NCBI GenBank assembly: GCA_017883425.1
Contig: JADGNP010000001.1
Span: 2,514-66,513, forward strand
Length of the DNA: 64,000 nt
Origin: Candidatus Sulfotelmatobacter sp.
Lineage (GTDB): Bacteria; Acidobacteriota; Terriglobia; Terriglobales; Acidobacteriaceae
Direction of reading: 5' to 3'
Under the pieces are notes generated by a model, which worked only from the letters and a program-made list of their open reading frames with translations, had not been told where the DNA came from and made no database searches. Positions 40,485 to 64,000 of the stretch are shown piece after piece. The position numbers were made by a program, and so were the translations under genes. Every line of letters starts with the position of its first letter. Position 1 is the first letter of the stretch.

Positions 40485-42244
40485 TCACTCGCCGGGAATT
40501 GATGTTCAGAATTGCAACTGCGGCGGGCTCTACCCTGATTCTTCCATCCCGATTCGCCCTTGCTCAGGGAATTTCGTCCCGCGGCATGAAGCCGCAACCG
40601 CGCGGCAAGCCATCCGGTCGTCCATTTTTTGCGCACTTCGTTGACGTTGCAAAAGAGGCTGGATTGAAGGAGTCCATCGTCTACGGTGGTCTCGAAACAA
40701 AAAACTACATCGTCGAGGTAGTTGGAGCTGGGGTTGCATTCCTTGACTATGACAATGATGGCTGGATGGATCTACTGGTGCTGAACGGCACTCGACTTGA
40801 AGGCGATCCGCCGGGCGTCACCAATCGCCTGTACAAGAACAATCGAGATGGTACGTTCACCGACGTGACCGCAAAAGCAGGGCTGATACGGGCTGGCTGG
40901 GCTTCGGGCGTGACCGTTGCCGATTATGACAACGACGGTTTTGACGATCTCTTTATCACCTACTACGGCCACAACGTGCTTTACCACAACAATGGCAACG
41001 GCACGTTCTCTGATGTGACGAACAAGGCTGGGCTCTCGCAGAGCGCTGTGCGTTACGGTTCGGGCTGCACTTGGGTGGACTACGACCGCGACGGACACCT
41101 CGATCTCTTTGTTGCTAACTACCTCAGCACTACTCTCGATAAGTTGCCAAAGCCGGGAACGAACCCTGACTGCACCTGGAAAGGTGTTGCGGTGAACTGC
41201 GGTCCCCGCGGCCTGCCTACCGGCTTCGTGCAGCTTTTTCATAACAACGGCAACGGTACTTTTACAGAAGTCAGTAAACAGAGTGGCGTGGCGTCCGCAT
41301 CCGGTTCCTATCCCATGACGTGTGTGGCAGCCGACTACGATAATGACGGCTGGCCTGATATTTACGTCGCGTGCGATTCCACCCCTAGCTGGATGTTTCG
41401 CAATCAGCACGATGGCACTTTTCGCGAAGAGGCCCTCGAACGCGGCGTCGCGCTCAGCGAAGATGGACTAGTGCAAGCCGGCATGGGCGCAGCAGTGGGG
41501 GATATTGATCTAGACGGGAATCTCGACATTTTCAAGACTAACTTTGCCGACGATACGAACATTCTCTATCACAACGACGGCAAGGGCAACTTCGACGACG
41601 TCACCATTCATTCCGGCTTAGGCGTTGAAACACGCTACGTCGGATGGGGTGCAGGAATCGTTGATCTGGACAACGACGGCTTCCCCGATCTCTTTGTGGC
41701 GACCGGAAGTGTTTATCCCGAAGTTGAAAAGAAAGTGCCGGCCTACCCGTTTCGGACTCCACGCCTGGTCTTTCGCAATCTGGGCGACGGCAGATTCGAG
41801 GAGTTAATCGAAGAAGCTGGCCCGGGCGTCTCCGATGTGCACGCCAGCCGCGGGTGCGCTTTCGGGGACTTCGACAATGATGGCGACATCGACGTCCTCA
41901 TCTGGAACATGAACGAGCCTCCTTCTTTGCTGCGAAATGATCTGTCCGGGAGAGGCCACTGGCTGAAAGTCTTCCTCATTGGAGTCCGCAGCAATCGCAG
42001 CGCGATTGGCGCGCGAGTGACTGCCCGGTACGGCAACCGTCTGCAATCGCAGGAGGTTAGCGCGCAATCCAGCTTCTATTCTGTGAACGACCGCCGCTTA
42101 CACTTCGGGCTTGGAAACGAAACAGTGGCGCATCTGAGCATTCGCTGGACAAACGGCACCACAGAGACTGTTCCAAACGTTGCGGCCGACCAACTCGTCG
42201 TCATTCGCGAAGCGGCGGGGATCATTCACAAGCAAAAGTTCTGA
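40481..42244 (+). CDS. FG-GAP 7-bladed propeller + ASPIC/UnbV protein (CRTAC1-like), Tat signal; paralogue 3, subtype I
   Basis: 587 aa. ATGA start/stop overlap with paralogue 2. Leader MITRRELMFRIATAAG. About 70% identical by eye to paralogue 1 (17506..19269). Seven DxDxDG loops. Confidence 0.85.
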   Translation: MITRRELMFRIATAAGSTLILPSRFALAQGISSRGMKPQPRGKPSGRPFFAHFVDVAKEAGLKESIVYGGLETKNYIVEVVGAGVAFLDYDNDGWMDLLVLNGTRLEGDPPGVTNRLYKNNRDGTFTDVTAKAGLIRAGWASGVTVADYDNDGFDDLFITYYGHNVLYHNNGNGTFSDVTNKAGLSQSAVRYGSGCTWVDYDRDGHLDLFVANYLSTTLDKLPKPGTNPDCTWKGVAVNCGPRGLPTGFVQLFHNNGNGTFTEVSKQSGVASASGSYPMTCVAADYDNDGWPDIYVACDSTPSWMFRNQHDGTFREEALERGVALSEDGLVQAGMGAAVGDIDLDGNLDIFKTNFADDTNILYHNDGKGNFDDVTIHSGLGVETRYVGWGAGIVDLDNDGFPDLFVATGSVYPEVEKKVPAYPFRTPRLVFRNLGDGRFEELIEEAGPGVSDVHASRGCAFGDFDNDGDIDVLIWNMNEPPSLLRNDLSGRGHWLKVFLIGVRSNRSAIGARVTARYGNRLQSQEVSAQSSFYSVNDRRLHFGLGNETVAHLSIRWTNGTTETVPNVAADQLVVIREAAGIIHKQKF

Positions 42245-48433: not shown

Positions 48434-48440
48434 TTTAGGT

Positions 48441-49985
48441 TCACTCAGGCAGCAACAGGCGCAAACGCACGTCCTTTTGCGCACGTTGCGCCGCTTCCAG
48501 CTTTCGTGACTCCGCAAACTCGCTCTCTGACTCGGCAGACTTGCCCAGGCGTCGAAGCAGAAGCCCTAGCTGGTAATGCGCTTCCACCGAATCCGGATCG
48601 AGAGAGACTGCGCGCTCGAGGTTCTGTTGGGCGTCCTCGTACTGGTGCACCCTCAGCAGTATGCCACCCAGTTTCACGTAGGACGGCGCATGCTTGGGAT
48701 TGCTCTTGAGTAACTCGCGGAAGACCGGGATCGCACGATCATCGTCGCCAATTGCGTCGTAAGTCAGCCCCAGATAGTAGGAAGCCGCTACCTGATTCGG
48801 TTGAGCCGCAAGGCTCTGCTTGAGCAAAGCTTCCGCTTCGCTGTACTTCCCTTGCAGGTAATATACGGCGCCGGTTGCATACATCAGGACGGCATCATGC
48901 GGGTGCTTCTGGAGCAGTCGCTGGAAAAGCGCTAGAGCGTCCGGCAACTGGCCCTTGGCAACTTTGGCGGAGCCTAAAACGTAGACGTACGAGTCATTGT
49001 CCGGCTCTCGTTCTACAGCCTTTGTCAGCGCAGGCAGCGCATCGTCGACAAGATTTCTCTCTAGACAGACTTTGCCAAATTCGAAGAGAACCTCCGGATC
49101 TTCAGGAGCTAGCTTTTTGGCGGCAACCAGATATGCCAGAGCTTTCTCACTGTTGTCTTGTCGATCGGCAACTTGCGCAAGAGTCTGGTAACACGCGACG
49201 CAGTCGGGAGCCAGCGACAACGCAAGTTGCGAATTCTTCTCCGCCTCGTCGAGAAGCCCTAGAGCCAGAAAAGCATTCCCCAATTTGAGGGCTAGAGGCG
49301 GTGACGGATGAGCACCGAGTCGCGCTGCTTCGTCCTGGGCCACTTTCGTGGCCTCAGTTTTCATCCCGTACACGAGCAGCGTGGTGCCGAAATCCAATGA
49401 CGCTTGATCCTCAGGTTGTGGCAACTTTTGCCAGTGCGCAAACAGGTCCGCTAACTCTTGCTTCTTTCCGAGCCCACCATAGTCGGAGGCAAGGACAACT
49501 ATCGCCTCATCAGATTCCAGTAGCTGAGGCATGATTGGCACAGCCAGATCGAGGGACTGCTGGAAATTGCGCCGGGAAGCCTCCAGTTTGAACAGGTCGA
49601 AGCGAGCATCGAAATTGCTTGGATCGATTTTCAGCACATCGTAAAAGCATTTCGCCGCCAAATCTGGCTTACCGCCGAACGCGTAGGCATTCCCCAACGT
49701 TGTGCGAGCGCCCACTAGCTTTGGATTCAGGGCGAGAGCTTGAACCAGAAACTTGGTACTCTCATCGGTTTTCCCCTGCTGCAACCGAATCGTTCCGAGC
49801 ATGGCCAGCGCTAAGGCGCGAGTCGATGGACTCTGCATGGCTTTACGGGCCTCGGCCTCGGCTTGCACCGTATCGCCGTTGCTCAATAGCTGAGCAGAGG
49901 TCGCAATGTGATTGGTCTGAGCACATGCGGCGACTGCAAGGAAACACAGGACGAGGAACACGCGCCAGCAGTCTCTTGCCCGCAT
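48441..49985 (-). CDS. Secreted TPR protein (TPR-3)
   Basis: The ATG at 49985 gives the signal MRARDCWRVFLVLCFLAVAACAQ; the track start at 50132 adds 49 non-signal residues. The stop lies 7 nt before the propeller-4 ATG. Confidence 0.8.
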   Translation of the reverse strand: MRARDCWRVFLVLCFLAVAACAQTNHIATSAQLLSNGDTVQAEAEARKAMQSPSTRALALAMLGTIRLQQGKTDESTKFLVQALALNPKLVGARTTLGNAYAFGGKPDLAAKCFYDVLKIDPSNFDARFDLFKLEASRRNFQQSLDLAVPIMPQLLESDEAIVVLASDYGGLGKKQELADLFAHWQKLPQPEDQASLDFGTTLLVYGMKTEATKVAQDEAARLGAHPSPPLALKLGNAFLALGLLDEAEKNSQLALSLAPDCVACYQTLAQVADRQDNSEKALAYLVAAKKLAPEDPEVLFEFGKVCLERNLVDDALPALTKAVEREPDNDSYVYVLGSAKVAKGQLPDALALFQRLLQKHPHDAVLMYATGAVYYLQGKYSEAEALLKQSLAAQPNQVAASYYLGLTYDAIGDDDRAIPVFRELLKSNPKHAPSYVKLGGILLRVHQYEDAQQNLERAVSLDPDSVEAHYQLGLLLRRLGKSAESESEFAESRKLEAAQRAQKDVRLRLLLPE

Positions 49986-50188
49986 AGAGTGGGTGCCCGG
50001 GTGGATACGAGGCCCGGTCAGAACTTCGTCTTTTATAGCATTGCCGCTGTACCCGCGCAATGCGTAAACCCGCGAAAATACTGGGGGGATTGCTCTTGTG
50101 ACCCCGCGCTCCACAGGTGTAGATTCATCCACAGGACAATCGGTTCTACTCTTGTCGGTTGCGGCTTTTCGGGGGCAGACGCAGCTTC

Positions 50189-51913
50189 ATGATCCAGGGA
50201 AAAAGTGGGTATTTTGGCACACGCCGTGGCTTCCTGAGACGCATCGGTGCAGTACTAGCCGCTTCTGCTCTTCCCGGTTTGCCCAGGCTTTGGCCAGTAG
50301 CCGTATCACCCCCTGAATTCCCCTTTGAACTCGTACCTCCAGAAGTGAACGGGATAACCTGGACCCACCGCAACGGCCGCTCGCCCGAGATGTACTTGCC
50401 TGAGACGGTTGGAGCGGGTTGCGGATTCATTGATTATGACAACGACGGCTGGATGGACCTCTATCTGGTCAACAGCGGGAAGTGCGATTTCCTGGATCCG
50501 AATCCGCCCCTTCGCAACGCACTCTACCACAACAACCGTGATGGCACCTTCACGGATGTAACCGAGAAAACGGGAGTTCCGGGAAGCGGCTATGGAATGG
50601 GTGTTGCGGTGGGCGACTACGACGGCGACGGCTTCCCCGACCTTCTCGTCACGCAATACAACGGTGTCATCCTCTACCACAACAATGGGAACGGCACGTT
50701 TACTGACGTGACCCGTAAAGCCGGGCTTCCCGCCACTGGATGGGCCTCGAGCGCAGTGTGGTTCGACTACGACAACGATGGCAAGCTTGACCTTTTTATC
50801 TGCCGGTTCGTGGACTTCGACAAGTCCAAGAACAAATTCTGCGGCAACCAGGAGACCGGAGACCGTTACTACTGCATCCCTCGCGTTTACGATCCCATGC
50901 CGAGTTGGCTGTTCCACAACAATGGCGACGGCACCTTCACCGACGTCAGCCAGGAGTCCGGGATTGCGAAGTCATTGGGCAAAGCCTGGGGCGTGGTCGC
51001 CTGCGACATTAACAATGATGGCCGGATGGACCTCTTCGTCGCGAACGATACGGTCGCGAACTTTCTATTTCTCAACCGGGGTAATGGCAAATTCGATGAG
51101 ATCGGACTTCAGGCAAATGTCGGCTACAGCGCCGAAGGCCATGCTCGCTCCGGCATGGGCGTGGACGCCGCGGATTATGACCAGGATGGGTGGGTAGACC
51201 TGTTCGTCACCAACGTGGACCGGGAGATGTATTCGCTGTATCACAACAATCACGATGAGAGTTTCGACGATATGGCCATTCCTAATGGGATCGGGCGAGT
51301 GACCCGGCTGATGAGCGGGTGGGGAGTTAAGTACTTCGACTACGACAACGACGGCAATCTCGACCTGTTCCTTGCCAATGGCCATCCGGACGACAAAATT
51401 GAAGAGCACTCGACGGAAGTGAAGTACTGCGAACCTATGCTTCTCTTTCGCGGCACTGGTAAACGATTCGAAGACATTTCTGGATCCAGCGGCCCAGTCT
51501 TTACAAAGCCCTATGCGTCGCGTGGCATGGCAGTTGGTGATTTCAATAACGATGGAGCCTTGGACATTCTCGTCGCGGTTAACAATGGCGCCCCTCTGTT
51601 GGTTAAGAACAATGCGGGGAGACACAATCATTGGCTGGGCGTGAAACTGGTAGCGAAGCAAGCGAACCCTGATGCTATCGGAGCCGTGATCACTTGGCAG
51701 GCTGGAGACTTGAAACGATCGATCTTCAAGACAGGCGGGGGGAGCTATCTTGCCTCGCACGATCCACGCCTCATTCTCGGCATCGGCGCTCGTCCGAAGA
51801 TCGACTGGGTGGAAATCAAATGGCCTATGCCTAGTGGACGGGTAGAACGATTCGCCGACCTCCCGATCGACAAATACATAACCTTATCGGAAGGCCGCGG
51901 AACAAAGGTTTAA
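50189..51913 (+). CDS. FG-GAP 7-bladed propeller + ASPIC/UnbV protein (CRTAC1-like), Tat signal; paralogue 5, subtype II
   Basis: The ATG at 50189 gives [30 protein letters not shown]. Seven loops from [10 protein letters not shown] to [10 protein letters not shown]. Shares the subtype-II insert [16 protein letters not shown] (compare RYCGERPPNGVRAYCHP in paralogue 2). Confidence 0.85.
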
Positions 51914-53873: not shown

Positions 53874-55028
53874 CTAACGGACCTCTGAACTCGGACCCGT
53901 TGGCTTTCCCCTGCCCGTCAATTCCCGAATCAGTTTGATCTCGGCATCGCGGTAAGGCTTCCCATCCGGGTGAAGCACTTCGTGGAACCACACCGTTGGC
54001 TCATCGAGGATGTAAGGATGCCGCCAGGAATCCCACGGGTAGTACGTTTGCGTCTTGCCGGCAACGAAGCCCCAGTTAATGGCCGCCACTTTGTACTTCT
54101 TTGCGAGGGGCAAGACAGTGTCAAACGTGCTGCCGGCTCCGCGTGCCATAAATTCTGTGCAGATCAGCGGACGATGGAACTTCTGAAGAAATAGCACTTC
54201 TTTTTCGAAGCTCTCCGGCCATCCGTAGTTGTGGAAGCTGATTACATCAGAGTCTTCGAGCTGAATCTGCTGAGTCTTCGTCAACGCCGACCCGTTTTCA
54301 AAATCGATATCCCAAACGCCACTAGTAAGAGGCTGCGACGGATGCGCTTCTCGCGCCCACGCGAACACTTTCGGCAGCAATGCTTCCACTAATTGCTGTT
54401 TGTTGGAAGGCTCGAGTTTGGAATAGCTGCCGTGATTTGTATTTGAGGGCTCATTCCATACGTCCCAGCCGAGCACGCGGCCGTCGTTCGCGAACGATCC
54501 AACTACTCCCAATACATATGCCTTCAGCCGGCCTTCTTGAGCAGGATCGGCGAGCGCTGCGCTGCCCGGTGACTGCACCCATCCTGAGTTGTGCACTCCG
54601 GGGATCGGCGGATGCTGGACTCCGAGTTTGGGGTGCGGGTCCCAGCACGAATCAAACAGTACAAAAAGCGGCTTGATGTGGTGCCGAGAAGAAATCTCCA
54701 GGAATTGATCGATGCGCTTCTTGAAGCCATCAGGATCTTCTTGCCATAGCAGGTCATGGAGGAAGACGCGCATCGTATTCATCCCGAGGCTCTCCGCCCA
54801 ACCCAATTCCTTGTCGATTTGAGCAGCATTGAAGCTCTGCGCCTGCCACATCTCGAGTTCGTTGATTGCGTCTGCTGGAATGTAGTTGCTGCCGACCAGC
54901 CAGGATTGCTGGTCATACCAGGATCTCGCCCTATCTTCGGTCCATCGTGACGCCTGCGCACGCAAGGGGCCTGAAGTTAGCAACGTAAAGGTGATAACCG
55001 CCCAAACTAATGTTCTTTTTACAACCAT
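53874..55028 (-). CDS. Clan GH-A TIM-barrel glycoside hydrolase (GH5-like), Sec-secreted
   Basis: The ATG at 55028 gives the signal MVVKRTLVWAVITFTLLTSGPLRAQA. Acid/base motif GWDVWNEPSN, ISFHNYG, and candidate nucleophile LICTEF. Specificity cannot be read from the sequence. Confidence 0.65.
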   Translation of the reverse strand: MVVKRTLVWAVITFTLLTSGPLRAQASRWTEDRARSWYDQQSWLVGSNYIPADAINELEMWQAQSFNAAQIDKELGWAESLGMNTMRVFLHDLLWQEDPDGFKKRIDQFLEISSRHHIKPLFVLFDSCWDPHPKLGVQHPPIPGVHNSGWVQSPGSAALADPAQEGRLKAYVLGVVGSFANDGRVLGWDVWNEPSNTNHGSYSKLEPSNKQQLVEALLPKVFAWAREAHPSQPLTSGVWDIDFENGSALTKTQQIQLEDSDVISFHNYGWPESFEKEVLFLQKFHRPLICTEFMARGAGSTFDTVLPLAKKYKVAAINWGFVAGKTQTYYPWDSWRHPYILDEPTVWFHEVLHPDGKPYRDAEIKLIRELTGRGKPTGPSSEVR

Positions 55029-55100
55029 CGCATCACCCGACACAGAATATAGTCGAAAAGCTGAAGAACGACGTACACAAAAGAGGAGCGTGTGGCGCCC

Positions 55101-55262
55101 AGTCTCCATGTCGTTCTCAGAACGCAAACGATGTCCGCATCCCGTGAACTTTCTGCAAAGCGTTCGCGCACCCCTCCAGCATTAACTTTTCCGGATACCT
55201 CATTGTTCGTTCAGGTCGTTAAGAGGTTAGAACGCAAAATCGATGAAAGGCTGCGCTCTTCA
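55101..55262 (+). repeat. Copy 2 of the diverged ~165-nt direct repeat (partner at 33521..33686)
   Basis: Same orientation as copy 1. Contains an open 51-codon frame from the ATG at 55131 (MSASRELSAKRSRTPPALTFPDTSLFVQVVKRLERKIDERLRSSTSRIAAS). Copy 1 carries a 1-nt frame disruption in the equivalent stretch. Confidence 0.6.
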
Positions 55263-55619
55263 ACGAGTCGCATAGCGGCAAGTTGATGACTTTCAATCGT
55301 CATTGCTCGTTTTCAAGGGCTTACAGTCGGAGCAAGGGCCTCCAAGTCGGACTCAGGGGCTCTCGTTCGGCAGTTACCTGCACTCCGCTTGGTGCTCCAT
55401 TTTTCGAGATGCGATTCAAGCCACCCCGCGGATCCTGCTACTCCCACAAAACTGGCGCCATCGTCGTTGTCTTCGATCTCTACGTTCATTCGTACAGCAC
55501 GTCTACAGACTTCGCACAGGACTTGGCCGAATCTGAACTGGTGCGATTGGCCATGACCGCCTAACGCTATTCCTTGGTAGCTTCTCTCACGATCCGTGCG
55601 AGCGTCTTCAGATCTCGAA

Positions 55620-58600
55620 TCATGCCGCAGCGAGTCTACGCGGCATATCTCTTCGTCGCACATGCGCGACCGGCTTCTCGTGTAGTAGCAGTTCAGTTGC
55701 CTGCACTCGCCGCTCGGCGTGAAACCACTTCTGCACAACATCGTCATTCAGAAAATTGGCCAACGCCAACAGGCTCATTCCTTGATGGTGGGCCATCCAG
55801 CACCGCACTAATTGCGGGCGCCCCCTCCACAATCTGTGCCTGGTGGAAGTAAAGTCTGCGGCTTCGTAAAAGCCGTGGTTCCCAAACCACCCCATATCAG
55901 CCATTTTGAGCAGATTGCGCACCGCTCCTACTGGGTCAGTATTGAGCGCGAGGAACGTCGAATAGGGGGATATGACGAGTGCATTTGTCTCTCGTGCCCG
56001 CAGTCCGAGATGGGGAAGGCCAAAAGCGTAATACTGATAATTTCCAGCTTCGTCCAATTTGAAATACGCGGATTCGGAAATACCCCAAGGAACGCCTTTG
56101 CGCGCAGCATAGGTCTGCTGCGCACGTACGGCGGCCGTGCGCGAACGCTCTAAGAGCGTATTGGGGTAGGTGCGCATCCAAAGCGAAGGCATCAAATACT
56201 CAAACAACGTTCCAGTCCAGGAAAGCAAAACCGGCCGTCCGCCATCCAGAGTGTGGGCCCGGCCAAGCAGGAACCAGCTCTCCTGTGGAATATCTTCCTT
56301 GGCAATAGCGACAAACACGGCGGTGCGAGACTCCGTTCCGAGCAAGTCATAGCAAGCAGGGTGAAGATGGTGTGTCTCCACATCGAAGCCTACGGATATC
56401 AGTTTGCGGCGGTTGTCGAGCAACAACCCGAAGTCCATTTCATCGGCCAGCTTCCCCGCGCTGTTTGCGATCGTTCGAATATCCGCAATCAAGCGTTCCG
56501 TGTTCGATCTTGCTTTCAGGAGCTGGTCGCGAAGGCGTACATACCGAAGTTCCTGCCCCTGGGTCGTGGATTCGAGGCCCCGCTCGATTTGGCCGATCAG
56601 TTGGTCGATGAATCGGGGCAGTTCCTGCAACGCGATGCTGTCCATCAATTTGATGTTGACCGCGGCGTCATCACGCAAAGCTGCAAAATCAAGCGAAGAC
56701 CACGGCGAATATTCGCTCACTGCGTGCTGAATGCTCCGGAACCGCAACGCAGCCTCTTCCGCAAACCATTCGATTTGGGAGGGTCGTTTGGACTTGGCAA
56801 TAGTTTCGTTGGTCTGCTTGAAAACTGCCTCGGACAAGCCGAGTATCGACTGCAACCAACTATCCGTATTGCGCAGCCGTTCGCAGCTCAAAAGCAACTT
56901 TCGCGGAAAGGCACGGCCGGCAGACAGTACACGAAGATAATCCAGAAATCCTTCCGACAAACACGGCTGCAATACCGGCTGGCGTAACCGTTCCATGCAT
57001 CCTTGCTGCAGAGTCCAGAGCGACGCCAGCAAGTTACCGCTATCCACGGAAGAAACGAAAAGGGGAGCAAGCGGCTGAAGCGTACGCGTGTCGTACCAGT
57101 TCAACACGTGGCCGTGATGCTTTTTCAAGCTCTCGATTGTGGCTAATGTGCGAAGAGTCTGTTCGGCAAATTCCGGCACCGTGAGATATCCGAATTCACA
57201 GGCCACCTGCCTCGCGTTGAGTAGAAACCCGATGTTGGTCGGTGAGACCCGGGCCGCCACAGCAGCAGGCTCTTCTTGAACGTTGTCCGGGATCAACCAG
57301 TGGTGCTCGGCGGTACTGTACTCCGCGAAATATCGCCAGGTGCTCAGGGAGGTACGCCTGAGAAAAGCCACGTTCTTTCGGGAGGTTTGATTTCGGGCCG
57401 TGGCCGGAGCCCGACCAAGCCAGATGGAAACCGCTTTACTACAGGCCCAAAGCGCTAGCATCGGCAGCGCGGTCGGAAGCGCCTGGCGCCGCACCGCCCA
57501 CACCAAAAAACCCAATAGGATCGCAAGCAGAGGCATCCAGTTCAGATACGCGTCGACAGGTGTGCGGCCCCGAGTATTGAGCTCCGATTCGGCCGCCGTT
57601 TCCCATTCCAAAAGCCGGGCTTGCGTGACAAAGCGCCGGACCAACGATCGCACGACCGCATCCAGCGCGAGCATGGTCTGATGGGGGAGGAAGATCAACG
57701 TGAAAAGAAGATTAACTTTAGCGGTGTAAAGTGCATTGAACGCATCGCCGACGATGGTCAGATCAAGAGCGAAAATGGCGCGGAGCAGACTGAAGCTAAA
57801 CTCGACCCAGGCGGGTATGAATAAAATGCACAGCGTGGCCAGAGTCCATAGCCACGGCTTACCGGGTAAGAACCATCCAGCCACGAGCAACAGAAATGTT
57901 GCCGGTTCCACTAAGCTGCGGCGAAGGTTGTCGACAATCTTCCACCACGAAATCAGCGAAATCGGATTGGCAACGCGTTGCACCGACTCGTCCGGCACAA
58001 AACGGAATAACCACTCCGCGATCTGCCAGTCGCCTCGCAACCAGCGGTGTTTTCGCCGATTGTAAGCGCTGTAGTGGGAGGGGTAGTCCTCGATTATCTC
58101 GATGTCACTGGCCAAGCCCGCCCGCGCATAGGCTCCTTCCAGCAGATCATGACTGAGCAGAGAATTTCTGGGAAAGCGCCGGTCGAGGACCCGATGCAGG
58201 GCGTCCACCTCGTAGATTCCCTTTCCCGTAAAGCTGCCCTCGCGATACAAATCCTGATAGGCATCGGAAATCGCACGAGTATAGATATCGAAACCAGTTT
58301 CTCCCGCGTAGATGGCTGCGAGCCGCGAGCGGGCTGTGCTTTGCACGCTGACGCCGACCCGCGGCTGCAATATGCCATATCCGTCAACCACAATATTCGT
58401 TTGTGGATCGATGATGGCTTGGTTCAGTGGATGCGCCAGAGCTCCAACCATGCGGTGTGCCGCGCCCCGTGGAAGCTCCGTATCCGAATCGAGCGTGATC
58501 ACAAACCGAACCCGGGGGAGGATCGACAGCTCTCCAACTTTCACCGGGAAACTGTCGTACTGCCCGCGCAGCAGTTTGTTGAGGTCGAGCAGTTTGCCGC

Positions 58601-60110
58601 GCTTACGCTCCCATCCCATCCACGATTTCTCGCGCGGGTTGTAAACCCGATGCCGATGAAATAAAAAGAAGGAACCTGCGCTCTGACTCGCGTACTTGTC
58701 ATTCAATTCGCGAATCAAATCCGAGCACAACGTAATGAGCGGATTGTCCTCCCGAGCCGGTTCACGAGAATCGGCCAAGTCGGTCAGGAGTGCGAAATGA
58801 ATATTGGGATCATGGTTTCCCAGGAAGCGCACTTCCAGGCTCTCAACCAGCTCTTTCACCTGTTTTTCACCCAGGAGCAGAGTAGGAATTGCGACCATGG
58901 TTACGCAGTTGTCAGGAATCCCTTCCGTGAAATCGAGTTTAGGGAGAATTTCGGGAGGCAGCAGCAAACTGACCAGATAGTTCATGAGCTGCACGGCGCT
59001 CTGTGAACTGGGTAACAACAGGATCAGCATCGAGAACAAAATAAGCGCCACCGAATTGAAGGAATCGGTGAGAAGTATCACCGCCACGGACATGATGGCA
59101 AGCGCCAGAAGGTGTATGCCCAGCAAGAAAAACTCATCGGGATGCTTACGCACAAGTGCCTGAATCTTCTGGCCGAATGGCGGATGGAAGCGGACCTTCT
59201 GCCAGAGAAGAGAGCATCCCTTGTCCACCAGGTAGTAACCGACGTGCGATTCCCGGAGAGCGACGCGTGGCTCGACATAGCTGCGTTGACTGGCCTGTTC
59301 GGCCAATGCCACGACCGCCTCCGCGGTCTCCAACTCGGAACAATCAGAATGCTTGGCGATGTTTGCGATTCGGTTTCGGTAAAGATCCCGGCTTTCGAAA
59401 TCCATCCGACCGTAGGCGCCGGCGGGGTCCTGCCGTAACACGCCGTCGATCATCATGAGCGGCTCAAGGACATCCTTCCAGGTTGTTTGTCCAATGTCCC
59501 GCAGACTCCGTACCAAAATACTCACACCGCTGGAATCGTCCTTGGGATTGTCCAGCAGACACCTGCCACGCTCGGCGATCTCCTCCAGAAGAACCAGCTT
59601 AAGGGCCGAGCCCAAGGACCACAGCTCGCGCAGTTGCAACGCCGTGGTTTGCTGAAATACTTCCACAAACAAAGTAAATTCCTGTTCACTGAACTCGTAG
59701 GAAACCGCCTCAAGAAATCCTTCTGCGAGGGCCAGAACTCGGGGAATGGTTAGGCCAGCCGGGGTCCGCACGTGTGCAATTTTGGCTTGGGACTTGAGCG
59801 TTCCAACCGCATTCTGGAGTTCCGAATACAGAAGGCGGCTACTGTCGTAAAGCCAGTGGAAATCGCCGGAGGTCGGCGATTTCGGCGCGGGCCGTTCCAG
59901 GCCAGCAAATATGGGCTTGAAATCATGGGCGAGAACGCGGCTGCGCTCAGCAAAGGTGTGCGATGAAGGAGCGTTGGGCAACCAGGTTAGACTGCGCGCA
60001 AGCGCCGCTGCTTTGTCATGAATTACTTGCGGATCCCGGGCCCGTTGAGCGGGCTCCGGCAGGCGTTCAGCGTCTGCGCTGACGGCCTCTAAATGTGTGT
60101 TCTTCGGCAT
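55620..60110 (-). CDS. Cyclic beta-1,2-glucan synthase-like membrane protein: GT84 glycosyltransferase + (alpha/alpha)6 cyclisation-type domain, without GH94 phosphorylase domain
   Basis: 1496 aa. N-terminal cytosolic region (MDFESRDLYRNRIANIAKH). TM clusters flank a GT84 core (VITLDSDTELP, GILQPRVGV, LLSHDLLEG, HRWLRGDWQ). The C-terminal domain (SPTNIGFLLNA, SSVDSGNL, LFEYLMPSLWM, WGISESAY, GFYEAADF) is typical of the Cgs middle domain. The ORF stops there. Confidence 0.8.
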   Translation of the reverse strand: MPKNTHLEAVSADAERLPEPAQRARDPQVIHDKAAALARSLTWLPNAPSSHTFAERSRVLAHDFKPIFAGLERPAPKSPTSGDFHWLYDSSRLLYSELQNAVGTLKSQAKIAHVRTPAGLTIPRVLALAEGFLEAVSYEFSEQEFTLFVEVFQQTTALQLRELWSLGSALKLVLLEEIAERGRCLLDNPKDDSSGVSILVRSLRDIGQTTWKDVLEPLMMIDGVLRQDPAGAYGRMDFESRDLYRNRIANIAKHSDCSELETAEAVVALAEQASQRSYVEPRVALRESHVGYYLVDKGCSLLWQKVRFHPPFGQKIQALVRKHPDEFFLLGIHLLALAIMSVAVILLTDSFNSVALILFSMLILLLPSSQSAVQLMNYLVSLLLPPEILPKLDFTEGIPDNCVTMVAIPTLLLGEKQVKELVESLEVRFLGNHDPNIHFALLTDLADSREPAREDNPLITLCSDLIRELNDKYASQSAGSFFLFHRHRVYNPREKSWMGWERKRGKLLDLNKLLRGQYDSFPVKVGELSILPRVRFVITLDSDTELPRGAAHRMVGALAHPLNQAIIDPQTNIVVDGYGILQPRVGVSVQSTARSRLAAIYAGETGFDIYTRAISDAYQDLYREGSFTGKGIYEVDALHRVLDRRFPRNSLLSHDLLEGAYARAGLASDIEIIEDYPSHYSAYNRRKHRWLRGDWQIAEWLFRFVPDESVQRVANPISLISWWKIVDNLRRSLVEPATFLLLVAGWFLPGKPWLWTLATLCILFIPAWVEFSFSLLRAIFALDLTIVGDAFNALYTAKVNLLFTLIFLPHQTMLALDAVVRSLVRRFVTQARLLEWETAAESELNTRGRTPVDAYLNWMPLLAILLGFLVWAVRRQALPTALPMLALWACSKAVSIWLGRAPATARNQTSRKNVAFLRRTSLSTWRYFAEYSTAEHHWLIPDNVQEEPAAVAARVSPTNIGFLLNARQVACEFGYLTVPEFAEQTLRTLATIESLKKHHGHVLNWYDTRTLQPLAPLFVSSVDSGNLLASLWTLQQGCMERLRQPVLQPCLSEGFLDYLRVLSAGRAFPRKLLLSCERLRNTDSWLQSILGLSEAVFKQTNETIAKSKRPSQIEWFAEEAALRFRSIQHAVSEYSPWSSLDFAALRDDAAVNIKLMDSIALQELPRFIDQLIGQIERGLESTTQGQELRYVRLRDQLLKARSNTERLIADIRTIANSAGKLADEMDFGLLLDNRRKLISVGFDVETHHLHPACYDLLGTESRTAVFVAIAKEDIPQESWFLLGRAHTLDGGRPVLLSWTGTLFEYLMPSLWMRTYPNTLLERSRTAAVRAQQTYAARKGVPWGISESAYFKLDEAGNYQYYAFGLPHLGLRARETNALVISPYSTFLALNTDPVGAVRNLLKMADMGWFGNHGFYEAADFTSTRHRLWRGRPQLVRCWMAHHQGMSLLALANFLNDDVVQKWFHAERRVQATELLLHEKPVAHVRRRDMPRRLAAA

Positions 60111-60139
60111 TGGATATACGGGTTCCTATGGATGAAGTT

Positions 60140-61960
60140 CTATCGGTAGTTGGCAGCTTGCATTTCAAACATGCCTGCGTAGCGCCCCCCGAGATTCAAT
60201 AGAGTGTCGTGATTGCCATCCTCGGCAATCCTTCCCTTGTGCAAGACAACGATGCGGTCTGCCATTCTTACGGTTGAAAATCTGTGTGAGATAAAGAGGG
60301 CGGACTTTCCCGCGGTGAGCTCGGCGAACCGCTGAAACACTTCGAACTCACTGCGCGCGTCGAGTGCGGCCGTAGGCTCGTCCAGAATGAGCACTTGCGC
60401 ATCGCGAAGATAGGCGCGCGCGAGTGCGATCTTCTGCCACTCGCCGCCCGACAGATCCACCCCATTCTCAAAGCGGCGGCCTAACATTTGATCGTAGTCG
60501 CGGGGAAGTCTTTCGATGACTTCGTTGGCCATGCTCTTATCAGCTGCTGTTTTGAGGAGCGGCAAATTGTCGATCTCATCGATCCGTCCGACCGCGACGT
60601 TTTCGCGGGCGGTCATCTCATAGCGCATGAAGTCCTGGAAGATGACGCCAATTTCCCGGTAAAGATCCTCCAGGTTGTACTCTCGAAGATCCACGCCATC
60701 CAATAAAATCTGGCCTTCGACCGGATCGTAGAGCCGCGTCATCAACTTCACCAGGGTCGTCTTGCCTTCGCCGTTTTCTCCAATCAGCGCGACCCGCTCC
60801 CCTGCCCGGAGATGGAAGTCCAAGCAGTTCAGCACGAGCCGGGAGGTTCCCGGATAGCGGAAGGAAACGTTGCGAAATTCGAATCCCCGCATGATCGGTC
60901 GAGGAGCTGGCAGCGCGTTGGGCTTGGATCTGATGGTGGGCTGCATTTCAAAAAATGCGAGCAAGTCAGTGAGGAACAACGCCTGGTCCGCAATGCTGGA
61001 GAGGCTGGAGAAGATTTGCTGGATATTTCCACTCGCCTGCACGATCGCGCCGGTCAGAAAAGTCAGGGTACCGATCGTCAGCGATCCGGTCACGGTCCGC
61101 CAAATGACATAGACATAGGCGGAGTAATAACCGGCAGTGCCGATCATGGAGAGGAAGGATCCTGCGATGAGCCTTCGGCGGGCGAGATCAACGTTCTCGC
61201 GATAAATATCATCCGAAAGACGCGTGAACCGCCCGATGAGGAAATCCTTCAGTCCAAAAAGCTTGAGTTCCTTGGCGGCTTCCCGGCTTCCTCCCAGTAC
61301 GCGAAGGTAGTCGAGTTCCCGGCGGATCGGGGTTTGGCGGAAGTTTCTGGCGTATCCAAGAAACGCGAAGTGGCTTTCTCCGAGGAATGCCGGAAGAATA
61401 CCGGCAATCAGCAACAGCAAAAGCCATGGCGAGAACAAGAGAATGGAAACCGACAGGGATGCAGCGGTAATCACCTGCTGCACCAATCGCCCGATGGACT
61501 GAATCATGCCGAGGCGGTCGGTGGCCTGTACCCGTGCGCGTTCGAGCCGGTCATAGAAGACCGGATCTTCGTAGGTGGTGAGATCCAGTTCGGCAGCGTG
61601 CTTCATCACCTGAATGCTGATGTGGCGGGTGTATTTGTCCGCCAGTAGAGCATCGAGATAATCGATAGTCCGGCCGAGAAAGCTGCCGAAAATGGCGATG
61701 GCGAATTCTGCCGCAACCAGCCACCAGAACACTGGTTTCACGGGCTGATGGCTGGAAACGGCATGCACAATGCCGTCAATAATGAGTTTCGTGATCCAAA
61801 GGGCCGCGAGCGGTATCAGCGAACTGACGAGCCGGAGAACCAGTCCCAGGGCGACGACAAGCGGGCCCGACTGCCAAACGATGCGGAGGACTGGGGGAAC
61901 GTTGCGAAGCGCTGCGAGACGCTCTCTCCAACCGCCCCAAAACCTCCTCGTCTCGGCCAT
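60140..61960 (-). CDS. ABC exporter, fused permease + ATPase (MsbA/NdvA-ChvA-like)
   Basis: 606 aa. Six-TM N-terminal half. Walker A GENGEGKTT, signature LSGGEWQ, Walker B VLILDEPT. The stop is 29 nt upstream of the synthase start. Confidence 0.85.
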   Translation of the reverse strand: MAETRRFWGGWRERLAALRNVPPVLRIVWQSGPLVVALGLVLRLVSSLIPLAALWITKLIIDGIVHAVSSHQPVKPVFWWLVAAEFAIAIFGSFLGRTIDYLDALLADKYTRHISIQVMKHAAELDLTTYEDPVFYDRLERARVQATDRLGMIQSIGRLVQQVITAASLSVSILLFSPWLLLLLIAGILPAFLGESHFAFLGYARNFRQTPIRRELDYLRVLGGSREAAKELKLFGLKDFLIGRFTRLSDDIYRENVDLARRRLIAGSFLSMIGTAGYYSAYVYVIWRTVTGSLTIGTLTFLTGAIVQASGNIQQIFSSLSSIADQALFLTDLLAFFEMQPTIRSKPNALPAPRPIMRGFEFRNVSFRYPGTSRLVLNCLDFHLRAGERVALIGENGEGKTTLVKLMTRLYDPVEGQILLDGVDLREYNLEDLYREIGVIFQDFMRYEMTARENVAVGRIDEIDNLPLLKTAADKSMANEVIERLPRDYDQMLGRRFENGVDLSGGEWQKIALARAYLRDAQVLILDEPTAALDARSEFEVFQRFAELTAGKSALFISHRFSTVRMADRIVVLHKGRIAEDGNHDTLLNLGGRYAGMFEMQAANYR

Positions 61961-62187
61961 TTGGTTATTCCCCTTGGACAGTGAGCAGATTAGAGATGCC
62001 TAACCTGCATCAGAGGTTTAAGTTTACAGGCTGGGATCTAGAAAACAGAGCAATATTGGTCGCTTCTTTTTCGATCCTTCCCGGTCATTTTCTAATTCCG
62101 TGCCCGGCAAATACGAGATACGACAGAAATTGATGGGTCGGACGCGCGATTGTCGCGAAAATACAGGTAAATTGAGCTTTTTGAACT

Positions 62188-63525
62188 TCACGCCTGGTAT
62201 TTCTTGAAACCCGCCCGCCGCATGCCGCGTTGAGCCGCTTCGTTCTTCATAAACGTATTCCAGACAAATCCAGTGCGCAAATTCTCAGCCATCAGCAATG
62301 TGATCCCAGTATCGATCCCGATCACGTCGCTGTCGTACCAGCCGGTGAGCGGGTTGAAGGCGTTCACAAACCCGTACTTGCTCCAAGCCGCGGGATAGCG
62401 ATCTTTTATCGTCCGCAACCCACGCATCACCGGTTGGGGCAGGAACGGCAGTGAACCAGCCGACGCGCTCGGCACAATGGTCCCATCGATCGGCCCGACA
62501 GCCGGCGGGCCGCCCCAAATCACGTAGCCATTGGGGGAATCCGAAGCGGTGATTCCCCATAAGTTCTCGCTATAGCTGGGAAATTGCCTCGCCAGCTCAA
62601 GGCAGAACCGACGATGAACCTCGGTCGCTGTAATGGAATTCTGGAAATAATCCGCGTATTTATCGCGCTTCCCGCGAAAATCAAACCAGGCTTGAGAATA
62701 TTGATGAATAAAAAGCGGGGCAAACGAGCCGATATAGCGCAAGCCGTCATACTCAAACGTCAGACGCTTCCAGGCTGTCCATGTTTCCTGGCGGAGCGGA
62801 TAGGTAGTGGAACCGAGCCCCAGCAGATACATCATCATCAATTCGCTGTAATTGTCCCAGCGGTAAGGGAGGAAACCCATCTCCGGCGTCCAGCCGTGAG
62901 GCAGGAGAGCGGTATCTTCAGACAACCAGGACCATTCCACTCGATCAAAAATGGCATCGGCCAAGCCTTGGACCTCTGCCGTCGGGAAGTACTCCCGGCA
63001 CGCCAAAACCCCGCAGAGCAGGATGGTGGTGTCAACGGAAGAAACTTCGGCGTCCCAAACACGTTCGCCAGTATTGATATTGGCCCAATGGAAGAAGAAT
63101 CCGCGATGATTCGGCAGTTTCGCCCAAAGGCACTCGAGGGTGGCCCGGACCCGCTCCTGCGCCGGAGAGCGCAAGACAAATCCACGTTTTTCACCGATGC
63201 ATAACGCGGTCAATCCGAAACCGGTGGCGGCAATACTGCCGACAGTTCCGCCATCATTGGCGTGAACGTTGCATCGGTCTCTGACCAAGCCTGTTTTTGG
63301 ATTGGCCTGTTCCCAAAAATATTGGAAATTGGCTTTTTCCAAGTCATTGAGGAACCGATCGTCCTCCGGCGAAATCGAGTTTGAACCGGTCTTCGCGGTC
63401 GAAACCCCACGCGAACCGCTCAGCTGGGAAAATGCCAAGCTCGCGAATGGCAGGCAACATCCCATGCCGAGGATTTGCCGCACAAAATCGCGCCGCGTAG
63501 GTTCTTTGGAATTCATTCCTTTCAT
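62188..63525 (-). CDS. DUF3131/GH144-like (endo-beta-1,2-glucanase family) protein, Tat signal
   Basis: ~445 aa. Leader PTRRDFVRQILGMGCCLPFASLAFS. FQYFWEQANPKTGLVRDR and ATGFGLTALCIGEKRGFV resemble the glucoamylase-like beta-1,2-glucanase fold as I recall it. The track start at 63537 is a TTG; ATGs lie at 63525 and 63516. Confidence 0.6.
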   Translation of the reverse strand: MKGMNSKEPTRRDFVRQILGMGCCLPFASLAFSQLSGSRGVSTAKTGSNSISPEDDRFLNDLEKANFQYFWEQANPKTGLVRDRCNVHANDGGTVGSIAATGFGLTALCIGEKRGFVLRSPAQERVRATLECLWAKLPNHRGFFFHWANINTGERVWDAEVSSVDTTILLCGVLACREYFPTAEVQGLADAIFDRVEWSWLSEDTALLPHGWTPEMGFLPYRWDNYSELMMMYLLGLGSTTYPLRQETWTAWKRLTFEYDGLRYIGSFAPLFIHQYSQAWFDFRGKRDKYADYFQNSITATEVHRRFCLELARQFPSYSENLWGITASDSPNGYVIWGGPPAVGPIDGTIVPSASAGSLPFLPQPVMRGLRTIKDRYPAAWSKYGFVNAFNPLTGWYDSDVIGIDTGITLLMAENLRTGFVWNTFMKNEAAQRGMRRAGFKKYQA

Positions 63526-63673
63526 TGTGTCACGCAAAGCACCCGAATATGGCGTAAAACCTCAAGGTGGACCGCTTGCGCGATTCGGGGCAGCCTCGAC
63601 CCGTGGATTCGAATATATATTATAAGGATGCCGTTTCCGCTGCGTCTCTCATAAAATAGTTGAAGACTATTAG

Positions 63674-64000
63674 ATGACGATGGCAAGAAGAAGCTCGCTT
63701 TGGATCGTGCTAGCCCTGGCCGCAGGGCTGATTTTCGTGGGCGTATTGATTCGCCGACAACATTGGAAGCCGTTGACCATCACAGGTGCGGTCACCATCA
63801 AGGATGCGGATCCCAGAAAGCAATTGCCCATCGCAGATGTGGAAATCACGGTCGCCAACAGTGCAGGCGAGCCGCCGGCTAAATCCGATTCGTCCGGGTT
63901 TTTCAGCCTGAAATTGCGCAAAGGCCTGCTACGGGGTCAAGCGCTGATGTTGAAGTTCCGGCATCCCGATTACCTCCCTCTCGACCTTCCTGAATTTGCG
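63674..64000 (+). CDS. 5' part of a membrane-anchored protein with a CarboxypepD_reg-like beta-sandwich (runs off the right edge)
   Basis: The ATG at 63674 opens a frame of 109 codons to the window end; it is absent from the ORF track because there is no stop. Sequence: MTMARRSSLWIVLALAAGLIFVGVLI (TM anchor), then ITGAVTIKDADPRKQLPIADVEITVANSAGEPPAKSDSSGFFSLKL. Confidence 0.5.
   Translation, partial: MTMARRSSLWIVLALAAGLIFVGVLIRRQHWKPLTITGAVTIKDADPRKQLPIADVEITVANSAGEPPAKSDSSGFFSLKLRKGLLRGQALMLKFRHPDYLPLDLPEFA

What the first reader, a model, noticed from the sequence alone, without database searches (positions are those of the whole stretch)
55620..63537. Beta-1,2-glucan module with a half-size synthase: GH144-like glucanase, ABC exporter, GT84+cyclisation protein lacking GH94
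Seen in sequence: three co-oriented genes. The 1496-aa protein has the N-terminal region, TM segments, GT84 core (DSD, HRWLRGDWQ) and the (alpha/alpha)6 middle domain of cyclic beta-1,2-glucan synthases. It ends where the ~1300-aa GH94 phosphorylase (length-control) domain of ChvB/NdvB/Cgs proteins would begin. It is preceded by an MsbA/NdvA-like exporter 29 nt upstream, and further upstream by a Tat-exported GH144-like enzyme.

Established knowledge: Cgs (~2800+ aa) with the ChvA/NdvA exporter makes periplasmic cyclic beta-1,2-glucans in Rhizobiales and Brucella. GH144 enzymes are endo-beta-1,2-glucanases.

Inference: an acidobacterial system that synthesises, exports and trims beta-1,2-glucan without phosphorolytic length control. 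To my knowledge such a short architecture, and this polymer in this phylum, are uncharacterised.
Basis: partly seen in the sequence, partly recalled or inferred. Interest (0 to 1): 0.65.

Follow-up and report, generated by a model that had tools for sequence, protein, structure and literature searches.

The report
Short cyclic-glucan synthase operon in Acidobacteria
A soil acidobacterium carries an expressed gene cluster for making, exporting and cutting beta-1,2-glucan, and its synthase naturally lacks the large length-control half that all studied versions have, so it tests how these sugar rings are sized.

Summary
Three co-oriented minus-strand genes encode:
- a Tat-signal GH144-family beta-1,2-glucanase (62188-63537);
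- an ABCB/MsbA-type exporter (60140-61960);

All twelve glycosyltransferase, priming-tyrosine and cyclisation residues I checked are invariant.

The short gene is not a fragment. It belongs to one deep clade of short forms. Every named member is from Acidobacteriota (Terriglobales, Sulfotelmatobacter, Bryobacteraceae). Against long forms the clade lacks only two things: the GH94 tail and an 85-residue block of the N-terminal domain.

In 80 of 80 related loci the exporter gene sits directly upstream. A secreted GH144 and/or GH39 gene lies within 10 kb in 76 of 80. No GH94 gene lies within 10 kb in any of them.

Metatranscriptome contigs cover all three genes and cross both gene junctions.

The most likely function is synthesis of cyclic beta-1,2-glucan without phosphorolytic trimming, followed by dedicated export and periplasmic hydrolysis. 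The product itself is untested, and a GH94 gene elsewhere in the genome is not excluded.

Verdict: a new variant of a known kind, apparently undescribed in the searchable literature.

The parts
55620..60110 (-). [quoted passage not shown]
   Evidence: Alignment to 8rf0 (753 bits, residues 34-1520 of 2,818) and to 8wy1. More than 120 homologue clusters of about 1,495 aa.
59151..60110 (-). N-terminal domain (residues 1-320). It lacks an ~85-residue block after residue 188 (near coordinate 59546) that all 12-20 long forms aligned carry
   Evidence: The alignment jumps from query 178 / Cgs 185 to query 198 / Cgs 287. MAFFT comparisons of short and long forms confirm the block.
57921..58928 (-). 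GT84 catalytic region (residues ~395-730): DxD D541/D543, priming Tyr610 (equivalent to Cgs Y694), Asp655 (equivalent to D739), HRWLRGDWQ 688-696
   Evidence: Residue mapping from the alignment. All are invariant in 43 short and 20 long sequences. The roles of the Cgs residues come from PMC10901819.
57414..59126 (-). Span that holds the two blocks of membrane segments, with the cytoplasmic GT84 region between them: hydropathy peaks at residues 329-347 and 350-368 on one side of the GT domain, and 732-750, 757-775, 855-873 and 881-899 on the other
   Evidence: Kyte-Doolittle scan. This matches the 2+4 helix layout described for Cgs. No dedicated topology predictor was available.
55665..57386 (-). 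GH189 cyclisation (transglycosylase) domain, residues 909-1482: acid/base E1260, nucleophile E1346, E1304, W1298, H1441/H1442
   Evidence: 380 bits against TiCGSCy 8wy1. The residues map onto E1356, E1442, E1400, W1394 and H1536/7 (with roles from PMC10834661). All are invariant.
60140..61960 (-). ABC exporter half-transporter (606 aa, TMD-NBD), in an operon with the synthase
   Evidence: PF00005 116.7 bits; PF00664 26.3 bits (cut-off 28). Best NCBIfam model is MsbA at 283 bits, and every model is below its cut-off. PDB hits are ABCB1 and MsbA. It lies directly upstream in 80/80 loci; the ABC-stop to synthase-start distance, measurable in 75 of them, runs from -8 to 79 nt. RNA contigs span the junction.
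62188..63537 (-). GH144-family endo-beta-1,2-glucanase homologue with a twin-arginine signal peptide (TRRDFV...AFSQ)
   Evidence: PF10091 234.7 bits. 8xul XcSGL 228 bits, 5gzh CpSGL 177 bits. The E/F/Y clan residues align.
63674..64000 (+). Start of a divergently transcribed gene for a membrane-anchored protein of unknown function (c3), a conserved neighbour of the GH144 gene; cut by the window end
   Evidence: tblastn gives 95% identity to L001:5455-6441. It is present in 51/80 loci. Model and fold search.

Best explanation
The cluster is a beta-1,2-glucan synthesis, export and turnover module built around a naturally two-enzyme synthase.

Proposed mechanism:
1. The 1,496-aa inner-membrane protein glucosylates its own Tyr610.
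2. It extends a beta-1,2 chain from UDP-glucose with its GT84 site (D541/D543/D655).
3. Its GH189 domain (nucleophile E1346, acid/base E1260) cuts the chain off by intramolecular transglycosylation. This releases a cyclic beta-1,2-glucan in the cytoplasm and leaves the primer behind.
4. There is no GH94 phosphorylase, so the chain is not trimmed. Ring size is set by the cyclisation domain alone, and the rings are probably larger or more varied than the 17-25 glucoses of Rhizobiales.
5. The co-transcribed ABC half-transporter carries the product to the periplasm.
6. There the Tat-exported GH144 glucanase degrades or resizes it. In relatives a GH39 or GH3 enzyme is also present.

Shown: homology, residue conservation, clade structure, synteny and transcription.
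Inferred: the product, its cyclic form and size, the transporter's substrate and the role of the glucanase.
For: Domain and boundary homology to the solved Cgs and to the isolated cyclisation domain.

Twelve functional residues are invariant in 43 short-clade and 20 long sequences.

The short form makes up one pure clade of 23 representative clusters (clustered at 50% identity) plus the window. These go down to 43% identity and carry only acidobacterial names.

The only differences from long forms are the GH94 tail and an 85-residue NTD block.

The ABC gene is directly upstream in 80/80 GTDB-species loci and in two distant members (L081, L082).

GH144 and/or GH39 lies within 10 kb in 76/80 loci, and a Bryobacteraceae locus reads GH144-GH3-ABC-synthase.

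No GH94 was found in the window or in the 80 loci searched by tblastn.

Contigs from four metatranscriptome runs cover all three genes and cross both junctions. Depth falls to zero downstream of the synthase stop.

Published precedent:
- The cyclisation domain alone makes cyclic glucans (PMC10834661).
- Brucella Cgs with the phosphorylase domain deleted makes larger cyclic glucans in E. coli, and Cgt exports them poorly (PMC11071196).
- The Cgs TM domain forms no export channel, so a separate transporter is needed (PMC10901819).
Against: No biochemical data exist for any member of the clade.

In A. tumefaciens, removing the C-terminal half abolishes function in the osmotic assay. The published model gives the RFL/GH94 surface a role in orienting the chain for cyclisation, so activity of a tail-less enzyme is not guaranteed.

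Only 10 kb on each side was searched for GH94; the rest of each genome was not available.

The exporter fails the curated cut-offs of the glucan-exporter models, so its substrate is inferred from context alone.

Metatranscriptome contigs can contain DNA.

The GH144 gene is missing from the flanks of 17/80 loci.
Confidence: 0.62

Rival explanations
1. The standard pathway, split in two. A separate GH94 beta-1,2-glucan phosphorylase encoded elsewhere in the genome works with the short synthase and provides length control (and perhaps the scaffold) in trans.
For: Only +-10 kb per locus could be searched. In A. tumefaciens the C-terminal half is structurally important. GH94-bearing long synthases exist in other Acidobacteriota classes: Vicinamibacterales, Blastocatellia, Pyrinomonadaceae.
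Against: No GH94 was found in the 80 loci searched by tblastn or in the 64-kb window. The two extra distant loci show none among their annotated genes' Pfam families. The NTD block lost together with the tail suggests the contact surface went too (this is an inference). None of the 120 best GH94 hits carried a Terriglobales or Sulfotelmatobacter name. The apparent stand-alone 'PF10091+GH94' proteins are long genes broken by frameshifts.
Confidence: 0.13
2. The product is a linear or secreted beta-1,2-glucan (a matrix or capsule-type polymer), not a periplasmic cyclic glucan. The GH189 domain only releases chains. The secreted GH144/GH39 enzymes act like the hydrolases encoded in other exopolysaccharide operons (own knowledge: BcsZ, PslG).
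For: A GH39 gene lies inside the cluster in 46/80 relatives, and GH39 PslG is such an operon hydrolase (own knowledge). The part of Cgs proposed to orient the chain for cyclisation is missing. E. coli makes linear periplasmic beta-1,2-glucans that GH186 glucanases process (PMC11842490).
Against: The isolated cyclisation domain catalysed only transglycosylation, with no hydrolysis detected, and made cyclic glucans on its own. Its whole catalytic set is invariant here. The truncated Brucella enzyme still makes cyclic products. No outer-membrane export genes are conserved in the cluster.
Confidence: 0.15
3. The cluster is catabolic. It takes up and breaks down beta-1,2-glucans made by other soil organisms, and the large protein acts only as a transglycosylase.
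For: The window is otherwise a polysaccharide-utilisation region with GH43, GH51, GH127, GH39 and GH31 genes. GH144 plus GH3 is a known degradative pair (own knowledge), and one relative has both genes in the cluster.
Against: The GT84 donor-binding and catalytic residues and the priming tyrosine are invariant over deep divergence. The ABC protein has the fused TMD-NBD exporter layout, and no solute-binding-protein family appears among the conserved neighbours. The soluble domains of Cgs face the cytoplasm.
Confidence: 0.05
4. The short gene is a truncated pseudogene or an assembly artefact.
For: Long-read MAGs do split long Cgs genes by frameshift. Fourteen 'short' representatives are scattered singly among long forms and may be fragments.
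Against: More than 120 homologue clusters have nearly the same length, and they come from JGI, ENA, NCBI and Logan assemblies. The downstream DNA has no GH94 similarity. The catalytic residues are invariant. The gene is transcribed.
Confidence: 0.01

Closest known systems
[quoted passage not shown]
   Same: The order NTD - TM - GT84 - TM - GH189 is the same. DxD, the catalytic Asp, the HRW motif, the priming Tyr and the cyclisation residues are all conserved.
   Different: It has no GH94/RFL C-terminal half (about 1,300 aa) and lacks an 85-residue NTD block. It is half the size. It is found in Acidobacteriota (Terriglobia) and is always fused into an operon with an ABC exporter.
[quoted passage not shown]
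   Same: It keeps the same two catalytic domains. The engineered protein shows that this set is enough to make cyclic glucans.
   Different: The acidobacterial form is natural, anciently conserved and further trimmed in the NTD. Cgstr products are larger and Cgt exports them poorly, whereas here a different, dedicated exporter co-occurs with the synthase in every locus examined.
Isolated cyclisation domain TiCGSCy, founding member of GH189 (PDB 8wy1; PMC10834661)
   Same: 380 bits over 574 residues. E1356, E1442, E1400, W1394 and H1536/7 are all conserved.
   Different: TiCGS is a full three-region synthase; only its excised domain was studied.
NdvA/ChvA/Cgt cyclic-glucan ABC exporters
   Same: It has the same half-transporter exporter layout, and the gene lies next to the synthase gene.
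   Different: It scores far below the curated cut-offs: PRK13657 231 vs 733 and TIGR01192 188 vs 585. These matches cover mostly the ATPase half, and the best model is MsbA. It works like these exporters by context but is not shown to be a member.
GH144 endo-beta-1,2-glucanases CpSGL and XcSGL (PDB 5gzh, 8xul)
   Same: [quoted passage not shown]
   Different: Here the gene sits beside a synthase-exporter operon rather than in a degradative cluster, and it carries a Tat signal. Its activity is untested.
E. coli OpgH with the OpgG/OpgD (GH186) system
   Same: The logic is the same: a membrane synthase plus periplasmic beta-1,2-glucanases that process the product (PMC11842490).
   Different: The protein families are unrelated (GT2 and GH186), and the E. 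coli product is linear and branched.

Membership tests
[quoted passage not shown] | GT84 glycosyltransferase region with DxD, a catalytic Asp and the (Q/H)RW motif | tested here: met
   LDSDT (D541/D543), SHD (D655) and HRWLRGDWQ align with Cgs D624/D626, D739 and HRWARGDWQ. They are invariant in 63 sequences.
[quoted passage not shown] | Autoglucosylated priming tyrosine in the IF1-homology loop (Cgs Y694) | tested here: met
   Tyr610 (GFDIY) aligns with GIDPY of Cgs and is invariant. The glucosylation itself was not tested.
[quoted passage not shown] | Six transmembrane helices flanking the GT domain | tested here: inconclusive
   The hydropathy scan gives ten peaks above threshold. Six of them lie where the 2+4 helix layout of Cgs would put them, two before and four after the GT domain. 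No dedicated topology predictor was available.
[quoted passage not shown] | C-terminal GH94 phosphorylase (length-control) domain with the RFL subdomain | tested here: not met
   The protein ends 15 residues after the last residue aligned to Cgs (1520), and GP starts at 1536. There is no PF06165/PF17167 hit. tblastn found no GH94 in the window or in 80 loci.
[quoted passage not shown] | Full N-terminal domain | tested here: not met
   An 85-column block after residue 188 is present in all 12-20 long forms aligned and absent from all short forms.
[quoted passage not shown] | Product is cyclic beta-1,2-glucan made from UDP-glucose | not testable with these tools
   This needs expression and product analysis.
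GH189 (cyclising beta-1,2-glucanotransferase domain) | (alpha/alpha)6 domain similar to TiCGSCy, with nucleophile Glu, acid/base Glu and the supporting Glu and His-His | tested here: met
   380 bits against 8wy1. E1346, E1260, E1304 and H1441/H1442 align with E1442, E1356, E1400 and H1536/7 and are invariant.
GH144 (endo-beta-1,2-glucanase) | Sequence membership: PF10091 above the gathering score and full-length similarity to characterised members | tested here: met
   234.7 bits against a cut-off of 27. E = 1.9e-66 to XcSGL and 3.7e-51 to CpSGL.
GH144 (endo-beta-1,2-glucanase) | SGL-clan residues (XcSGL E239, F286, Y367) | tested here: met
   E, F and Y align in the alignment (query ...YSELMM......PLFIHQYS......YVIWGG...). 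This mapping assumes that the Q at chain position 225 of 8xul is an E239Q substitution (my inference; residue list).
GH144 (endo-beta-1,2-glucanase) | Hydrolysis of beta-1,2-glucan | not testable with these tools
   An enzyme assay is needed.
NdvA/ChvA/Cgt glucan ABC exporter | Reaches the curated equivalog/subfamily score (NCBIfam PRK13657, TIGR01192) | tested here: not met
   231.5 vs 733 and 187.8 vs 585.4. The matches cover residues 283-601 only, and MsbA scores higher (283 vs 602).
NdvA/ChvA/Cgt glucan ABC exporter | Fused TMD-NBD exporter encoded next to the glucan synthase gene | tested here: met
   PF00664 + PF00005. It is directly upstream in 80/80 loci plus L081 and L082.

The most novel reading that the evidence does not exclude
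In Terriglobia, cytoplasmic phosphorolytic length control was discarded. The minimal synthase and its dedicated ABC exporter act as one coupled machine, and size control or turnover moved to periplasmic hydrolases (GH144, GH39, GH3). If so, the GH94/RFL 'landscape' is not needed for cyclisation, and some of the most abundant soil and peat bacteria make large-ring beta-1,2-glucans of unknown role, possibly in osmotic or freeze-thaw tolerance.
Probability: 0.2. Interest if true: 0.75.

Novelty: new variant of a known kind. Interest (0 to 1): 0.6.

Why it matters
All mechanistic work on cyclic beta-1,2-glucan synthesis uses the ~300-kDa three-region enzymes of Rhizobiales, plus one Thermoanaerobacter domain. 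The current structural model gives the GH94/RFL half a scaffolding and chain-orienting role. It also notes that the GH94 active site is conserved in known homologues (PMC10901819).

A deep, expressed clade that dispenses with that half is a natural experiment on three questions: what sets ring size, whether the tail is needed for cyclisation, and how product size and exporter are matched.

It also points to beta-1,2-glucan production in Acidobacteriota, a dominant but poorly cultured soil and peat phylum. It offers a compact enzyme plus exporter pair for making large cyclic glucans, which are of interest as inclusion hosts. And it flags GH39 enzymes and an unknown membrane protein as candidate new beta-1,2-glucan-associated proteins.

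Tried and rejected
- **Pfam and NCBIfam on the synthase.** They gave only PF10091 and no GT hit, because there is no GT84 model. The GT assignment had to come from the PDB alignment.
- **Promoter and terminator consensus scan.** Hits were no more frequent than in shuffled sequence, so it was uninformative.
- **Literature searches.** Queries for GT84 or the synthase name with Acidobacteria, and for GH94 with Terriglobia, found nothing relevant.
- **Searching whole genomes for a separate GH94.** A GH94-domain protein search returned mostly long synthases; the named ones included several other acidobacterial classes and other phyla.
- **A possible third architecture.** Proteins of 1,400-2,200 aa with 'PF10091+GH94' turned out to be frameshift-broken long genes in long-read MAGs.
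- **The downstream 417-aa ORF.** It has only a weak GH10 hit, is unrelated to the cluster's GH39, and is absent from all related loci, so I do not count it as part of the module.
- **Neighbourhoods of long-form genes.** They showed no adjacent ABC gene in the two cases obtained, too few to generalise.
- **Fold search of the c3 model.** It identified only its small transthyretin-like domain.
- **Structure prediction of the synthase.** Not attempted, because the tool's stated limit for a single protein is 1,200 residues.
Full report
**Observation.** The region holds three co-oriented minus-strand ORFs: 62188-63537 (449 aa), 60140-61960 (606 aa) and 55620-60110 (1,496 aa). The intergenic gaps are 227 nt and 29 nt, and an AGGAA lies 13 nt before the synthase ATG. 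Upstream of the first gene is an AT-rich gap, then a divergent plus-strand gene that starts at 63674 and is cut by the window end. Composition is uniform at 54-59% G+C across the window.

**The large protein.** Pfam sees only PF10091 at residues 1266-1465, and NCBIfam sees nothing. [quoted passage not shown] It also aligns with the isolated cyclisation domain of Thermoanaerobacter italicus (8wy1, 377-380 bits). In the Agrobacterium enzyme the cyclisation domain is 979-1535 and the GH94 half starts at 1536 (PMC10901819). The window protein stops 15 residues after the position aligned to 1520, so it ends at that boundary.

Mapping the experimentally defined residues gives:
- D541/D543, equivalent to D624/D626;
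- Tyr610, equivalent to the glucosylated Y694;
- D655, equivalent to D739;
- HRWLRGDWQ at 688-696;
- in the cyclisation domain, E1260, E1346, E1304, W1298 and H1441/H1442, equivalent to TiCGS E1356 (acid/base), E1442 (nucleophile), E1400, W1394 and H1536/7.

All twelve positions are invariant in 43 short-form and 20 long-form sequences. Hydropathy peaks fit two membrane segments before the GT domain and four after it.

**Not a fragment, but a clade.** The word-indexed search listed 120 homologue clusters at 64-92% identity. Nearly all are 1,480-1,520 aa, and the names are Sulfotelmatobacter or Terriglobales, or generic labels such as "glucoamylase family protein" and "cyclic beta-1,2-glucan synthetase".

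An exhaustive HMMER search with residues 380-1496 found 12,527 related proteins among representatives clustered at 50% identity. Of the best 150, 39 end within 70 residues of the cyclisation domain and have no GH94, and 102 carry GH94. In a neighbour-joining tree of the shared region, 23 short representatives plus the window protein form one pure clade reaching down to 43% identity. The other 14 short sequences are single leaves among long forms and may be fragments. The named members of the distant part of the clade are Acidobacteriota and Bryobacteraceae. The 80 best species-representative genome loci are all Terriglobia-type MAGs, the closest being a palsa Acidobacteriaceae MAG at 98% identity.

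Over the whole shared length, long forms differ from short forms by only two blocks: the GH94 tail, and 85 columns in the N-terminal domain after window residue 188 (Cgs ~186-286). There are no short-specific insertions. The RFL subdomain of the GH94 half is reported to contact the N-terminal domain. I therefore suspect that the two losses are linked, but I could not check this in the coordinates.

**Neighbours.** The 606-aa protein is a fused TMD-NBD exporter (PF00005 116.7 bits; PF00664 26.3 bits, just under its cut-off). Its best curated model is MsbA (283 bits against a cut-off of 602). The glucan-exporter models score lower and match mainly the ATPase half: PRK13657 231 vs 733, and TIGR01192 188 vs 585. 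It is therefore not an NdvA/ChvA orthologue by those criteria.

Its gene is nevertheless directly upstream of the synthase in 80 of 80 loci. The distance from the ABC stop to the synthase start was measurable in 75 of them. It runs from -8 to 79 nt, with a median of about 15. The ABC protein is also better conserved than the synthase, at 71-98% against 55-98% identity. The same pairing holds in two members at 43-44% identity, including one whose annotated coordinates overlap by 4 bases.

The 449-aa protein is a clear GH144-family member. It scores 234.7 bits on PF10091, 228 bits to XcSGL and 177 bits to CpSGL. The clan E/F/Y residues are aligned, and it carries a TRRDFV twin-arginine motif.

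A GH144 homologue lies within 10 kb in 63 of 80 loci, in several arrangements: upstream on the same strand, downstream convergent, or upstream divergent. A strong GH39 family member (354 bits) lies inside the cluster in 46 of 80 loci. Only four loci have neither gene, and two of those have very short flanks. A Bryobacteraceae locus reads GH144-GH3-ABC-synthase. No GH94 similarity exists in the window or in any of the 80 loci. The rest of the window is an arabinan/hemicellulose utilisation region without GH94.

**Expression.** The DNA is found in permafrost, peat and soil metagenomes. Fourteen metatranscriptome runs hold 9-43% of the sampled words of the synthase gene. Assembled RNA contigs from four of those runs match all three genes at 95-99+% identity. 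One contig spans 59587-60556 and another spans 60024-60286; both cross the ABC/synthase junction. One spans 61955-62698, covering the GH144-ABC gap. Depth is zero at 55000-55300, beyond the synthase stop. This fits one transcription unit, or at least read-through. The caveat is that such contigs can include DNA.

**Mechanism.** Three published results bear on what a tail-less enzyme can do:
1. The excised cyclisation domain alone converts linear beta-1,2-glucan into cyclic glucans (PMC10834661).
2. Brucella Cgs lacking the phosphorylase domain still makes cyclic glucans in E. coli. They are larger, and Cgt exports them poorly (PMC11071196).
3. In A. tumefaciens the same kind of truncation fails the osmotic assay, although a catalytic GH94 mutant is nearly normal. 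This led to the idea of a scaffold role for the tail (PMC10901819).

The acidobacterial clade looks like a natural solution to the third point. It is a synthase remodelled to work without the tail (hence the NTD deletion), and it is locked to its own exporter, which would handle untrimmed rings. The Cgs membrane domain forms no export channel, so a transporter is required. The Tat-exported GH144 can only meet the product outside the cytoplasm, so it either recycles or resizes exported glucan. Which of these it does is open.

I give the overall reading a confidence of 0.62. The main rivals are a GH94 supplied in trans (0.13) and a linear or secreted polymer (0.15). A catabolic role and an artefact are unlikely.

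**Comparison and novelty.** The protein meets the tested sequence features of GT84 and GH189. It fails two features of the canonical three-region synthase: the GH94 half and the full NTD. The exporter works like NdvA/ChvA/Cgt by context but fails their family thresholds.

A 2025 review still describes these synthases as ~300-kDa, three-region proteins. The 2024 structure paper states that the GH94 active-site residue is conserved in known homologues. My searches found no account of the short form, or of beta-1,2-glucan synthesis in Acidobacteria.

I rate it a new variant of a known kind: real, conserved, expressed and mechanistically informative, but biochemically untested.

Noticed in passing
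window 63674-64000 (+), cut by the window end; full length in L001:5455-6441: A gene for a 328-aa membrane-anchored protein of unknown function (c3) lies divergently next to the GH144 gene in 51/80 related loci. A 322-aa gene with no Pfam family occupies the same position in a Bryobacteraceae locus; I did not compare its sequence with c3. The family has more than 6,800 homologues, all 'hypothetical', with no Pfam domain. The AF2 model (pLDDT 77) shows a TM helix, a transthyretin/CarboxypepD_reg-like beta-sandwich, and a ~190-aa Cys-rich all-beta domain with no convincing PDB match.
   Followed up: partly
L011:11900-13594 and 45 other related loci; not beside the window's cluster: A secreted GH39-family enzyme (PF01229, 354 bits) is embedded in the ABC-synthase cluster in 46/80 relatives. 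It is the only glycosidase there in the subclade that lacks GH144. To my knowledge no GH39 enzyme is known to act on beta-1,2-glucan, so this may be a new specificity.
   Followed up: partly
L082:4530-14467 (Bryobacteraceae): A distant member has a four-gene cluster, GH144-GH3-ABC-synthase. An MscS-type mechanosensitive channel gene lies about 1.7 kb upstream of the cluster.
   Followed up: no
window 1-53609: The rest of the window is an arabinan/hemicellulose utilisation island: L-arabinose isomerase, GH43, two GH51, two GH127, GH39, GH31, two LacI regulators and two large OMP_b-brl_4 receptors. It also holds five FG-GAP/UnbV_ASPIC genes (17506-19269, 38763-40484, 40481-42244, 46535-48517, 50159-51913) interspersed with TPR-repeat genes.
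   Followed up: no
window 53874-55127 (-): A 417-aa ORF lies 492 nt downstream of the synthase. It has only a weak GH10 hit (25 bits) and no counterpart in any of the 80 related loci. The RNA contigs laid gave zero depth over the part of it that was examined (55000-55127).
   Followed up: partly
L085:2630-11398; protein list: Many database proteins of 1,400-2,200 aa with PF10091+GH94 are long synthase genes broken by frameshifts in long-read MAG assemblies. A neighbouring OMP gene is split in the same way. Length-based surveys of this family need this caveat.
   Followed up: yes
P0157 locus and L085:502-2594: Long-form synthases whose closest named relatives are Vicinamibacterales sit directly after NTP_transferase and GHMP-type sugar kinase genes, possibly a sugar-nucleotide supply pair. 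No ABC exporter gene lies next to them.
   Followed up: no
L021:391-4656 and 10 similar loci: In the GH144-less subclade, the GH39-ABC-synthase cluster is preceded by a CHASE3 histidine kinase gene and a GAF-domain alpha-glucan phosphorylase-like gene.
   Followed up: no
L001:1654-3972 (-): The window's closest relative carries a second, longer GH144-type paralogue (772 aa, with an N-terminal extension) about 1.5 kb beyond c3. The matching position lies outside the window.
   Followed up: no
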